From: Escherichia coli
GTDB taxonomy: Bacteria > Pseudomonadota > Gammaproteobacteria > Enterobacterales > Enterobacteriaceae
DNA: 64,000 nt
Direction: 5' to 3' (one strand)
Assembly (NCBI RefSeq): GCF_003334305.1
Contig: NZ_QOWS01000022.1
Shown: positions 50,643 to 50,795 of the stretch, one piece after another
Numbering within the stretch: the stretch's first letter is position 1
Layout: every line of letters starts with the position of its first letter
Notes under the pieces: model-generated
The model's database searches: none
Told to the model about the DNA's origin: nothing
What the model saw: only the letters and a program-made list of their open reading frames with translations
Translations under genes and position numbers: made by a program

Positions 50643-50653
50643 TGCTGTGAAAT

Positions 50654-50773
50654 GCCGGATGCGACGTGAACGCCTTGTCCGGCCTACAAAACCGAAACGT
50701 ATGTAGGCCTGATAAGACGCATCAGTGTCGCATCAGGCAGTTGTTGTCGGATAAGGCGTGAAAGCCTTATCCG
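50654..50773. repeat. BIME / REP cluster in the malE-malF intergenic region
   Basis: Three REP-like palindromes: gccggatgcgacgtgaacgccttgtccggcctac, gtaggcctgataagacgcatcagtgtcgcatcaggc, cggataaggcgtgaaagccttatccg. Confidence 0.85.
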
Positions 50774-50795
50774 TCCTGGAATGAGGAAGAACCCC

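What the first reader, a model, noticed from the sequence alone, without database searches (positions are those of the whole stretch)
50643..50795. REP/BIME palindromes at six intergenic sites
REP-family palindromes built from the gccggatgcggcg / cgccttatccggc halves occur after gltP (77-110), acs (10537-10642), between alr and tyrB (29045-29074), after plsB (41932-41962), between lamB and malM (46517-46546) and as a triple cluster between malE and malF (50654-50773). They sit mostly at gene 3-prime ends or inside operons, where they are known to stabilise upstream mRNA and bind gyrase/IHF. They should not be mistaken for CRISPR repeats or mobile-element ends.
Basis: partly seen in the sequence, partly recalled or inferred. 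Interest (0 to 1): 0.2.

Follow-up and report, generated by a model that had tools for sequence, protein, structure and literature searches.

The report
E. coli REP/BIME repeats, malE-malF
These are the textbook REP/BIME palindromic repeats of the E. coli chromosome, including the three-hairpin malE-malF cluster that shields malE mRNA from degradation; the finding is correct but ordinary.

Summary
The window is E. coli chromosome, reverse-complement of K-12 about 4.232-4.296 Mb.

**The focal region.** The finding's coordinates, 50643-50795, are exactly the 153-nt malE-malF spacer. It holds three palindromic units:
- Y(+) at 50653-50687
- Z2(-) at 50703-50739
- a degenerate Y(+) at 50745-50777

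Together these form a BIME-2.

**The other sites.** All five other sites are real.
- gltP, acs and malE also carry Z2 units.
- alr-tyrB is a decayed BIME-1.
- A seventh remnant lies at 55657-55673.

**Support for family membership.**
- Every unit is extragenic.
- The ten units align in one frame with compensatory pairs.
- The Z2-Y unit occurs at 16 or more places in all 5,426 complete E. coli genomes.
- REP-specific insertion sequences mark the sites: IS621 abuts the gltP unit (window 1-75), and IS1397 sits in the malE-malF Z2 loop of another strain.

**Function.** The best-supported function at malE-malF is protection of malE mRNA from 3'-5' exonucleases, which is established in the literature.

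**Cross-species.** In 79 other Enterobacterales the spacer is structured in most (87.5% of 80 spacers with z below -2) but is built from different repeat families.

Novelty: already known. Interest is low.

The parts
50643..50795 (+). malE-malF intergenic spacer (153 nt) holding a three-unit BIME-2; transcribed on the + strand as part of malEFG mRNA
   Evidence: Gene map and sequence. The RNA fold is -68.2 kcal/mol, z = -7.07. 5,414 of 5,426 E. coli genomes cover at least 80% of a 601-nt query that spans the spacer.
50653..50687 (+). Palindromic unit Y1, head TGCCGGATG to tail GGCCTAC. It starts 11 nt after the malE stop codon. This strain has GCGACG where K-12 has GCGGCG.
   Evidence: 94% identical to the Y consensus. 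On its own it folds at -14.2 kcal/mol. K-12 comparison.
50688..50702 (.). Tail-to-tail short linker between Y1 and Z2 (AAAACCGAAACGTAT)
   Evidence: Sequence. BIME-2 architecture as described in PMC3333891.
50703..50739 (-). Palindromic unit Z2 in inverted orientation. It carries an intact IS621 target, ATCAGGCCTAC, on the - strand.
   Evidence: 92% identical to the Z2 consensus. Folds at -19.2 kcal/mol, z = -5.3. In strain BH100N, IS1397 is inserted in its loop with GTCA duplicated.
50740..50744 (.). Head-to-head short linker (GTTGT); the acs site has TTGAT in the same position
   Evidence: Sequences. The Z2-linker-Y unit reaches the Rfam naRNA4 gathering score at 50706-50776(-), 59.7 bits.
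50745..50777 (+). Degenerate Y unit (Y3). It has a perfect 10-bp palindrome, CGGATAAGGC/GCCTTATCCG (50748-50773). It has no CTAC foot and no stem mismatch. It ends 10 nt before the malF Shine-Dalgarno sequence.
   Evidence: 85% identical to the Y consensus. Folds at -18.5 kcal/mol, z = -6.0. E. albertii and Escherichia sp. E1V33 keep the usual GATGCGG head at this position.
10539..10549 (+). Y head fragment (3' arm deleted), 8 nt after the acs stop codon
10565..10601 (-). Z2 unit in the acs-yjcH spacer, inside the acs-yjcH-actP operon
   Evidence: 97% identical to the Z2 consensus. Folds at -21.9 kcal/mol. Rfam naRNA4 hit of 84.1 bits over 10568-10638(-).
10607..10641 (+). Y unit in the acs-yjcH spacer
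   Evidence: 97% identical to the Y consensus. Folds at -21.3 kcal/mol.
76..110 (-). Z2 unit downstream of gltP. Its GTAG foot is interrupted by an IS621 insertion at the CT core.
   Evidence: 97% identical to the Z2 consensus. Folds at -22.1 kcal/mol. Junction sequences. The IS621 target ATCAGGCCTAC is given in PMC11208160.
1..75 (-). Outer 75 nt of the IS621 non-coding end upstream of its transposase gene. This is not part of the REP family but abuts it.
   Evidence: Window 1-130 is 100% identical to isolate 07-4299, where an annotated IS621-family transposase lies between yjcO and this sequence. It is absent from K-12 and H15.
29044..29075 (-). Y unit 25 nt downstream of the alr stop codon, with no CTAC foot. 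An L-type linker (about 29010-29043) and an unrecognisable Z1 remnant follow, so the site is a decayed BIME-1.
   Evidence: 97% identical to the Y consensus. Aligns with the plsB-ubiA BIME-1 at 79% mean column identity, sharing the core AAATTCAATAA(A/G)TT. See, inverted repeat I1.
41931..41963 (+). Y unit of a BIME-1, 12 nt after the plsB stop codon
   Evidence: 94% identical to the Y consensus. Folds at -21.3 kcal/mol.
41964..42001 (.). Long (L-type) linker of the BIME-1. Its ATTCAATAAATTG is one mismatch from the IHF consensus WATCAANNNNTTR.
   Evidence: Sequence and alignment. The strict consensus scan does not hit it.
42002..42031 (-).
   Evidence: 87% identical to the Z1 consensus. It no longer folds better than shuffles (z = 0.04). 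K-12 has CATCAGGCA where the window has CATAAGGCA.
46516..46547 (+). Single Y unit in the lamB-malM spacer, 12 nt after the lamB stop codon on the - strand. K-12 has Y-Z2-Y here.
   Evidence: 97% identical to the Y consensus. K-12 has 91 nt more at this site.
55657..55673 (-). Half-unit remnant (TGCCAGATGCGACGTTG) in the divergent psiE-yjbT spacer. K-12 carries a different complete unit here.

Best explanation
**What it is.** The region 50643-50795 is the classical malE-malF BIME-2 of E. coli. It consists of three REP palindromic units in alternating orientation (Y, inverted Z2, degenerate Y). They belong to the chromosome-wide GTAG-type REP family, and the other five reported sites belong to the same family.

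**How it works.**
- Shown by sequence: once transcribed within the malEFG mRNA, the units fold into very stable hairpins. They can fold either as one long Y:Z2 duplex plus the third hairpin, or as three separate hairpins.
- Established in the literature for this exact operon: RNase E cleavage in the malF-malG part is followed by 3'-5' exonucleolytic decay (PNPase, RNase II). That decay stalls at these hairpins. The upstream malE segment therefore outlives malFG, and the periplasmic binding protein is made in excess over the membrane subunits.
- Origin, inferred from the literature on the family: the units are non-autonomous elements spread and rearranged by the REP-associated tyrosine transposase TnpA-REP. 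This would explain their copy-number polymorphism between strains.
- Secondary roles: the same DNA also serves as a target for REP-specific insertion sequences. Literature on the family suggests it is also a gyrase site (BIME-2) or an IHF site (BIME-1 L linker).
For: **Identity**
- The units are 85-97% identical to the published Y, Z1 and Z2 sequences (sequences listed in PMC11208160).
- Ten units align in one 37-column frame with 11 consensus pairs, two of them compensatory (G-C to U-A, which separates Y from Z).
- The window's self-comparison recovers the families.
- The 13-mer is enriched, 14 hits against 3.0 expected.
- All sites are extragenic in a window that is 85.7% coding.
- The 79-nt Z2-Y unit has at least 16 places in each of 5,426 E. 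coli genomes. The median is 40, which is the reporting cap.
- Rfam's Y-l-Z2 model (naRNA4) scores above its gathering threshold at both BIME-2 sites.

**REP-specific insertion sequences as independent markers**
- IS621 is inserted at ATCAGGCCT|AC of the gltP unit (target given in PMC11208160).
- IS1397 is inserted in the loop of the malE-malF Z2 unit in strain BH100N (REP specificity in PMC1525189).

**Architecture.** The y + z2 units with short linkers (BIME-2) and the y-L-z1 arrangement (BIME-1) match PMC3333891.

**Structure.** The spacer RNA folds at -68.2 kcal/mol, z = -7.07. Individual units have z from -2.7 to -6.1. There is no U-tract terminator.

**Function**
- PMC5927463 reports malE and malFG half-lives of 3.5 and 1 min. 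It describes the intergenic 3' structure as the exonuclease block, citing Newbury 1987 and Khemici & Carpousis 2004.
- In 80 malE-malF spacers (79 other Enterobacterales plus the window), 87.5% have z below -2 (median -5.3), even though they are built from unrelated repeats. This fits selection on structure at this position.
Against: - Nothing here measures RNA ends, half-lives or protein binding in this strain. The functional step rests on published K-12 work.
- Y1 carries a G-to-A change in this strain that weakens its own hairpin (-14.2 against about -21 kcal/mol for other Y units).
- REPs within 15 nt of a stop codon are reported to lower translation of the upstream gene (PMC12306157). Y1 is 11 nt from the malE stop. 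Its net effect on MalE could therefore be mixed.
- Copy number at the neighbouring sites varies freely between strains. At those sites, any function is dispensable.
Confidence: 0.9

Rival explanations
1. The main role is at the DNA level. BIME-2 (malE-malF, acs-yjcH) would act as a strong gyrase site. The BIME-1 L linker (plsB-ubiA, alr-tyrB) would act as an IHF site. The Y-l-Z2 units would take part in HU/naRNA-mediated nucleoid contacts. This is compatible with the mRNA role rather than exclusive of it.
For: - Gyrase cleavage sites are over-represented in BIME-2, preferentially in y units (PMC6379681).
- The L linker frequently carries an IHF site (PMC3333891).
- The two L linkers in the window share AAATTCAATAA(A/G)TT.
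- Rfam naRNA4 hits lie above the gathering score, and naRNA4 is a Y-l-Z2 unit (PMC4550694).
Against: - Only a subset of BIME-2 elements carry gyrase sites, and the paper names other loci.
- The strict IHF consensus is not met in either L linker.
- The Rfam hits are on the strand opposite to the operon mRNA, and the locus is not REP325.
- BIME copy number at lamB-malM, gltP-yjcO and pgi differs between strains with no known consequence.
Confidence: 0.3
2. The units are essentially selfish or neutral non-autonomous mobile DNA (REPIN-like doublets moved by TnpA-REP). They persist where they do no harm, and the hairpin effects on mRNA are incidental.
For: - TnpA-REP binds, cleaves and recombines REP/BIME single strands (PMC3333891).
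- Presence/absence and copy number vary strongly between this strain and K-12. At gltP-yjcO the count is 1 against about 12 units, at lamB-malM 1 against 3, and at pgi 0 against 2.
- The malE-malF spacer is amplified to 428-611 nt in E. albertii, E. whittamii and Escherichia sp. E1V33.
Against: - The malE-malF cluster is present in at least 5,414 of 5,426 E. coli genomes. It is 153 nt in all four other strains inspected (K-12 and three more).
- Most Enterobacterales examined keep a stable structure at this position even when the repeat family differs.
- Y3 lacks both the GTAG foot and the stem mismatch that TnpA-REP needs, yet it is retained.
- Published deletion work shows an expression effect.
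Confidence: 0.25
3. The stop-proximal REPs (11 nt after malE, 12 nt after plsB, 12 nt after lamB) act mainly by stalling the terminating ribosome. This would lower translation of the upstream gene and trigger mRNA cleavage.
For: Distances were measured. PMC12306157 summarises Liang et al. [quoted passage not shown]
Against: - MalE is the stabilised, most highly expressed product of the operon. This is the opposite of a net down-regulation.
- The primary paper could not be read here, so I do not know whether malE was tested.
Confidence: 0.2
4. The cluster is a transcription attenuator or terminator that lowers read-through into malF.
For: BIME-associated transcription attenuation has been reported (Espeli et al. 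2001, cited in PMC12306157). The structure is very stable.
Against: No hairpin is followed by a T-run (0 terminator-like sites). The half-life difference is reported to account for differential malE/malFG expression.
Confidence: 0.12
5. The repeats are a CRISPR array or the inverted ends of a transposon.
For: There are short, G+C-rich, palindromic repeats in a cluster.
Against: - The units alternate in orientation with 5-15-nt linkers rather than being direct repeats with unique spacers.
- TRF finds no array.
- The same units are scattered at seven sites here and dozens per genome.
- Nothing lies between the units that a transposon would carry.
Confidence: 0.01

Closest known systems
E. coli REP / palindromic units (y, z1, z2) organised as BIME-2; specifically the malE-malF REP cluster of K-12
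   Same: - Same locus and same 153-nt spacer length.
- Same three units in the same order and orientation as K-12.
- 85-94% identity to the published unit sequences.
- y + z2 units with short linkers, as BIME-2 is defined.
   Different: - There are a few strain-specific substitutions: Y1 has GCGACG for GCGGCG, and Z2 has ACGCATCAGTGT for ACGCGTCAGCGT.
- The third unit is atypical in all E. coli strains examined, with a perfect stem and no CTAC foot.
BIME-1 / RIP-RIB element (y - L linker with IHF site - z1)
   Same: The plsB-ubiA spacer has Y(+), a 38-nt linker and Z1(-) as a single copy. The alr-tyrB site shares the Y unit and the linker core.
   Different: - Z1 is degenerate here and no longer folds.
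- The linker's IHF-like site has one mismatch to the strict consensus.
- At alr-tyrB the Z1 half is unrecognisable.
naRNA4 / REP325 (Rfam RF02564)
   Same: The Z2-l-Y units at 10568-10638 and 50706-50776 score 84.1 and 59.7 bits, against a gathering score of 59.5. naRNA4 is itself a Y-l-Z2 unit.
   Different: - The locus is different: REP325 lies between yjdM and yjdN.
- The hits are on the strand opposite to the operon transcript.
- There is one unit here rather than a six-unit array.
- HU binding was not tested.
ERIC/IRU elements and other enterobacterial intergenic hairpin repeats at the same malE-malF position
   Same: They occupy the same slot between malE and malF and give strongly structured RNA (z from -6 to -9) in Salmonella enterica subsp. 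arizonae and diarizonae, Klebsiella and some Citrobacter.
   Different: - The sequence family is unrelated. The spacer is 186 nt and contains both ERIC primer sites.
- A third family, built on CCCTCTCCC...GGGAGAGGG hairpins, fills the slot in Kluyvera, Cedecea, Enterobacter and others.

Membership tests
GTAG-type REP / palindromic unit of E. coli | 30-40-nt imperfect palindrome that can form a stem-loop | tested here: met
   Nine of ten units fold with z from -2.7 to -6.1. The consensus structure has 11 pairs across all ten. The exception is the degenerate Z1 at 42002-42031 (z = 0.04).
GTAG-type REP / palindromic unit of E. coli | Sequence match to the y, z1 or z2 consensus | tested here: met
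   Identity is 85-97% over 30-37 nt. The consensus sequences are the same as those used in PMC11208160.
GTAG-type REP / palindromic unit of E. coli | Conserved GTAG (CTAC) tetranucleotide at the foot of the stem | tested here: inconclusive
   - Present in 5 of 10 units: acs Z2, acs Y, plsB Z1, malE Y1 and malE Z2.
- Cut by IS621 in the gltP Z2.
- Absent in the alr Y, plsB Y, lamB Y and malE Y3.
GTAG-type REP / palindromic unit of E. coli | High copy number, dispersed around the chromosome | tested here: met
   There are seven sites in this 64-kb window. The Z2-Y unit has at least 16 places in each of 5,426 genomes; the median of 40 is the reporting cap.
GTAG-type REP / palindromic unit of E. 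coli | Extragenic location | tested here: met
   All units lie between annotated genes, although 85.7% of the window is coding.
GTAG-type REP / palindromic unit of E. coli | Recognition and processing by TnpA-REP (RAYT) | not testable with these tools
   This is a biochemical property (PMC3333891). The RAYT gene is not in this window.
BIME-2 | y and z2 units in alternating orientation, separated by short linkers | tested here: met
   - malE-malF: Y(+), 15 nt, Z2(-), 5 nt, Y(+).
- acs-yjcH: Y fragment, 15 nt, Z2(-), 5 nt, Y(+).

See; the definition is.
BIME-2 | Occurs as tandem copies whose number varies between strains | tested here: met
   - Within E. coli the malE-malF spacer is 153 nt in the strains inspected.
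- It is 428-611 nt in other Escherichia species.
- Unit counts at gltP-yjcO and lamB-malM differ between this strain and K-12.
BIME-2 | Gyrase binding and cleavage | not testable with these tools
   Literature only (PMC6379681). This locus is not named there.
BIME-1 (RIP/RIB) | Single y and z1 pair separated by a long conserved L linker | tested here: met
   Y at 41931-41963, a 38-nt linker, and Z1 at 42002-42031. The linker core is shared with the alr-tyrB site.
BIME-1 (RIP/RIB) | IHF binding site in the L linker | tested here: inconclusive
   ATTCAATAAATTG has one mismatch to WATCAANNNNTTR, and the strict scan does not hit it. Binding was not tested.
naRNA4 (Rfam RF02564) | Covariance-model score at or above the gathering threshold | tested here: met
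   84.1 and 59.7 bits against a threshold of 59.5. This reflects the generic Y-l-Z2 unit and is not evidence for an HU-binding RNA made at this locus.
mRNA 3' stabiliser (REP-stabiliser) of malE | Stable hairpin just downstream of the protected cistron and not followed by a terminator U-tract | tested here: met
mRNA 3' stabiliser (REP-stabiliser) of malE | Longer half-life of the upstream segment that depends on the element | not testable with these tools
   Published for K-12 (PMC5927463). Not measured in this strain.
CRISPR array | Direct repeats separated by unique spacers of similar length | tested here: not met
   The units alternate in orientation and the linkers are 5-15 nt. TRF finds no array.
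Intrinsic terminator | G+C-rich hairpin followed by a T-run | tested here: not met
   There are 0 terminator-like sites in 50400-51000.

The most novel reading that the evidence does not exclude
The position just 3' of malE may be a selected 'structure slot'. Across Enterobacterales it would have been filled independently by at least three unrelated repeat families: GTAG-type REPs, ERIC elements, and CCCTCTCCC/GGGAGAGGG hairpins.

In the E. coli lineage, the malF-proximal unit has lost both the GTAG foot and the stem mismatch that TnpA-REP requires. That would make it a domesticated, immobilised REP kept only for its hairpin.

The first half is partly anticipated by work on conserved protective structures in operons (PMC5927463).
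Probability: 0.4. Interest if true: 0.3.

Novelty: already known. Interest (0 to 1): 0.08.

Why it matters
It matters little beyond correct annotation. The malE-malF REP cluster is a textbook example of differential mRNA decay within an operon.

The practical value is threefold:
- The repeats should be masked, not flagged as CRISPR arrays, small-RNA genes or transposon ends.
- The Rfam naRNA4 hits in this window should be read as generic BIME-2 units.
- REP sites explain most of the indel differences between this strain and K-12 in this 64-kb stretch, including an IS621 insertion at the window's edge.

Tried and rejected
- **Fuzzy-regex scan.** A scan for the consensus units timed out. I replaced it with blastn-short.
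- **L linker against all E. coli genomes.** BLAST of the 45-nt L linker found only 1-4 places per genome at E <= 1. That is too insensitive for a short, roughly 75%-conserved motif in 28 Gb, so it says nothing about the size of the BIME-1 family.
- **Strict IHF consensus.** WATCAANNNNTTR does not hit either L linker. The IHF claim therefore stays at 'one mismatch, binding untested'.
- **Window 1-75.** I first assumed it was the 3' end of yjcO, as in strain H15. BLAST showed it is not. It is the end of an IS621 copy.
- **K-12 annotation.** The K-12 RefSeq record in this collection carries no REP features. Annotation could not be used as a check.
- **Literature access.**
  - The first search was swamped by the word 'male'.
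  - Liang et al. 2015 (PMC4427526), Clement et al. 1999 and Wilde et al. 2003 are not held. Their content is cited only through papers that summarise them.
- **Readings rejected.**
  - CRISPR array, because of orientation and spacing.
  - Intrinsic terminator, because there is no T-run.
  - A bona fide naRNA4 gene, because of wrong locus and wrong strand.

Full report
**Where the window comes from.** The window is E. coli chromosome. A 601-nt query around the finding matches 5,422 of 5,426 complete E. coli genomes, under malE and malF annotations. The whole window aligns at about 98-99% to K-12 MG1655 4,231.9-4,295.9 kb in reverse orientation. Mapping the K-12 genes onto the window gives malE at 49452-50642 (+) and malF from 50796 (+). 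The finding's coordinates, 50643-50795, are therefore exactly the 153-nt malE-malF spacer. Coding sequence makes up 85.7% of the window.

Ten hits lie in the reported palindromes and one in a remnant. Three are lone matches inside genes, about what chance predicts.
- Self-comparison of the window recovers the repeat families directly.
- A search with the Y, Z1 and Z2 unit sequences gives ten full units and two fragments. I first recalled these sequences from memory and then found them listed in PMC11208160.

| Unit | Coordinates |
|---|---|
| Z2(-) | 76-110 |
| Y head fragment | 10539-10549 |
| Z2(-) | 10565-10601 |
| Y(+) | 10607-10641 |
| Y(-) | 29044-29075 |
| Y(+) | 41931-41963 |
| Z1(-) | 42002-42031 |
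| Y(+) | 46516-46547 |
| Y(+) | 50653-50687 |
| Z2(-) | 50703-50739 |
| degenerate Y(+) | 50745-50777 |
| half-unit | 55657-55673 |

**Anatomy.**
- The ten units align in a single 37-column frame with an 11-pair consensus stem. Two pairs change on both sides: G-C in Y against U-A in Z at columns 5/30, and G-C against A-U at 12/23.
- Nine of the ten fold far better than shuffles. The Z1 unit has decayed in this strain (z = 0.04).
- The malE-malF cluster reads Y(+), 15 nt, Z2(-), 5 nt, Y(+). The acs-yjcH cluster reads Y fragment, 15 nt, Z2(-), 5 nt, Y(+). This is the BIME-2 arrangement defined in PMC3333891.
- plsB-ubiA reads Y(+), a 38-nt linker, Z1(-), which is a BIME-1. alr-tyrB has the Y unit and the same linker core (AAATTCAATAA(A/G)TT) but only debris of Z1.
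- The linker's IHF-like site is one mismatch from the strict consensus.
- Rfam's naRNA4 model is a Y-l-Z2 unit (PMC4550694). It scores above threshold on both BIME-2 sites. Those hits are on the strand opposite to the operon mRNAs and are not at REP325, so they are family resemblance rather than a gene call.

**Genome-wide and population evidence.**
- The 79-nt Z2-Y unit has at least 16 places in every one of 5,426 genomes. The median of 40 is the reporting cap.
- Copy number differs between this strain and K-12 at several sites:

| Site | This strain | K-12 |
|---|---|---|
| lamB-malM | one Y | Y-Z2-Y |
| gltP-yjcO | one Z2 | about 12 units |
| pgi 3' end | none | Z2-Y |
| psiE-yjbT | half-unit remnant | a different complete unit |

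- By contrast, the malE-malF spacer is 153 nt with the same three units in K-12 and three other strains inspected. At least 5,414 genomes cover at least 80% of a query that includes it.

**Two REP-specific insertion sequences give independent confirmation.**
- In strain BH100N an IS1397-family element sits in the loop of the malE-malF Z2 unit, with GTCA on both sides. IS1397 is known to target REPs (PMC1525189).
- Window 1-75 is absent from K-12 and H15. It is 100% identical to isolate 07-4299, where an annotated IS621-family transposase lies between yjcO and this sequence.
- The junction on the - strand is ATCAGGCCT|TGTAT. That places the insertion at the CT core of ATCAGGCCTAC, the natural IS621 target reported in PMC11208160.

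**How it most likely works.**
- Shown here: the spacer RNA is extremely structured (-68.2 kcal/mol, z = -7.07). Its minimum-energy form pairs Y1 with Z2 as one long duplex and leaves Y3 as a perfect 10-bp hairpin. No hairpin is followed by a T-run.
- From the literature (PMC5927463): malEFG is the founding case of differential operon decay. The intergenic structure blocks PNPase and RNase II after endonucleolytic cleavage downstream. Measured half-lives are 3.5 min for malE and 1 min for malFG.
- Inferred: the same mechanism operates in this strain.
- Supporting comparative evidence: I recovered malE-malF spacers from 79 other Enterobacterales. They range from 63 to 611 nt. With the window included (80 spacers), 87.5% fold with z below -2 and the median is -5.3. 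The structure is built from different elements in different lineages:
  - GTAG-type REPs in Escherichia, many Citrobacter, Pseudocitrobacter and some Kluyvera.
  - A 186-nt spacer containing both ERIC primer sites in Salmonella enterica subsp. arizonae and diarizonae, Klebsiella and some Citrobacter (primer sequences confirmed).
  - CCCTCTCCC/GGGAGAGGG hairpins in Kluyvera, Cedecea, Enterobacter and others.

**Rivals.**
- DNA-level roles rest on family-wide literature. These are gyrase at BIME-2, IHF at the BIME-1 linker, and HU/naRNA contacts. They are compatible with the mRNA role but untested at this locus.
- A purely selfish-element reading explains the polymorphic sites well. It fits the fixed malE-malF cluster poorly.
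- REPs at malE, plsB and lamB lie 11-12 nt from stop codons. That is within the 15-nt range reported to depress translation (PMC12306157). For malE this sits awkwardly with its high expression, and I could not read the primary paper.
- The attenuator, CRISPR and transposon-end readings are not supported.

**One detail worth recording.** Y3 has no CTAC foot, and its stem is perfectly complementary (GATAAGG where Y units have GATGCGG). E. albertii and Escherichia sp. E1V33 keep the usual mismatched form at this position. PMC3333891 reports that TnpA-REP needs both the GTAG and the stem mismatch. Y3 is therefore predicted to be invisible to the transposase. This is an inference, not a test.

**Verdict.** The feature is already known in detail, so interest is low.

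Noticed in passing
window 1-75 (- strand), junction at 75/76: The window starts inside an IS621 (IS110-family) copy inserted into the Z2 REP downstream of gltP, at the CT core of ATCAGGCCT|AC. The 75 nt are the outer part of the non-coding end upstream of the transposase gene. From my recollection of Durrant et al. 2024, this region encodes the bridge RNA, and it contains ATCGGGCCT. K-12 and strain H15 lack the insertion.
   Followed up: yes
L004 (E. coli BH100N) 2744-4332, equivalent to window about 50722: A natural isolate carries an IS1397-family IS3 element inserted in the loop of the malE-malF Z2 unit, with GTCA duplicated. 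It separates malE from malF by about 1.4 kb.
   Followed up: partly
window 46516-46547; 76-110; 60257-60264; 55631-55689 (against K-12 L001/L002): Most indels between this strain and K-12 in the 64-kb window are at REP sites:
- lamB-malM has 1 unit against 3.
- gltP-yjcO has 1 against about 12.
- The pgi 3' end has 0 against 2.
- psiE-yjbT has a half-unit against a different complete unit.
   Followed up: yes
L006-L097, malE-malF spacers: Across 79 other Enterobacterales the malE-malF spacer is 63-611 nt and structured in most. It is built from unrelated repeats (GTAG-REP, ERIC, CCCTCTCCC/GGGAGAGGG hairpins). E. albertii and E. whittamii have 428 nt, and Escherichia sp. E1V33 has 611 nt of amplified BIME-2.
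   Followed up: partly
window 50745-50777: The malF-proximal unit is a perfect 10-bp palindrome. It lacks the CTAC foot and the stem mismatch that TnpA-REP is reported to need. Other Escherichia species keep the mismatched form.
   Followed up: partly
window 50774-50787: In the minimum-energy fold of the spacer, a small 4-bp hairpin pairs UCCU with AGGA of the malF Shine-Dalgarno region. It could contribute to low MalF translation. It is weak and untested.
   Followed up: no
window 17876-18016 (+); 62151-62347 (+); 60107-60256 (+): Other Rfam matches above gathering score:
- sraL (RyjA) small RNA
- the lysine riboswitch upstream of lysC
- STnc430 next to the pgi 3' end

All are expected for this region of E. 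coli.
   Followed up: no
window 42041-42066 (- strand) and 121-146: Ordinary hairpins lie next to REPs:
- GCCGGATGATCATCCGGC with a T-run downstream of ubiA, which is terminator-like.
- GCCGGGTGGATAACCCCGGC between the gltP stop codon and the Z2 unit.

They share the GCCGGAT-like start with Y units but are not REPs.
   Followed up: no
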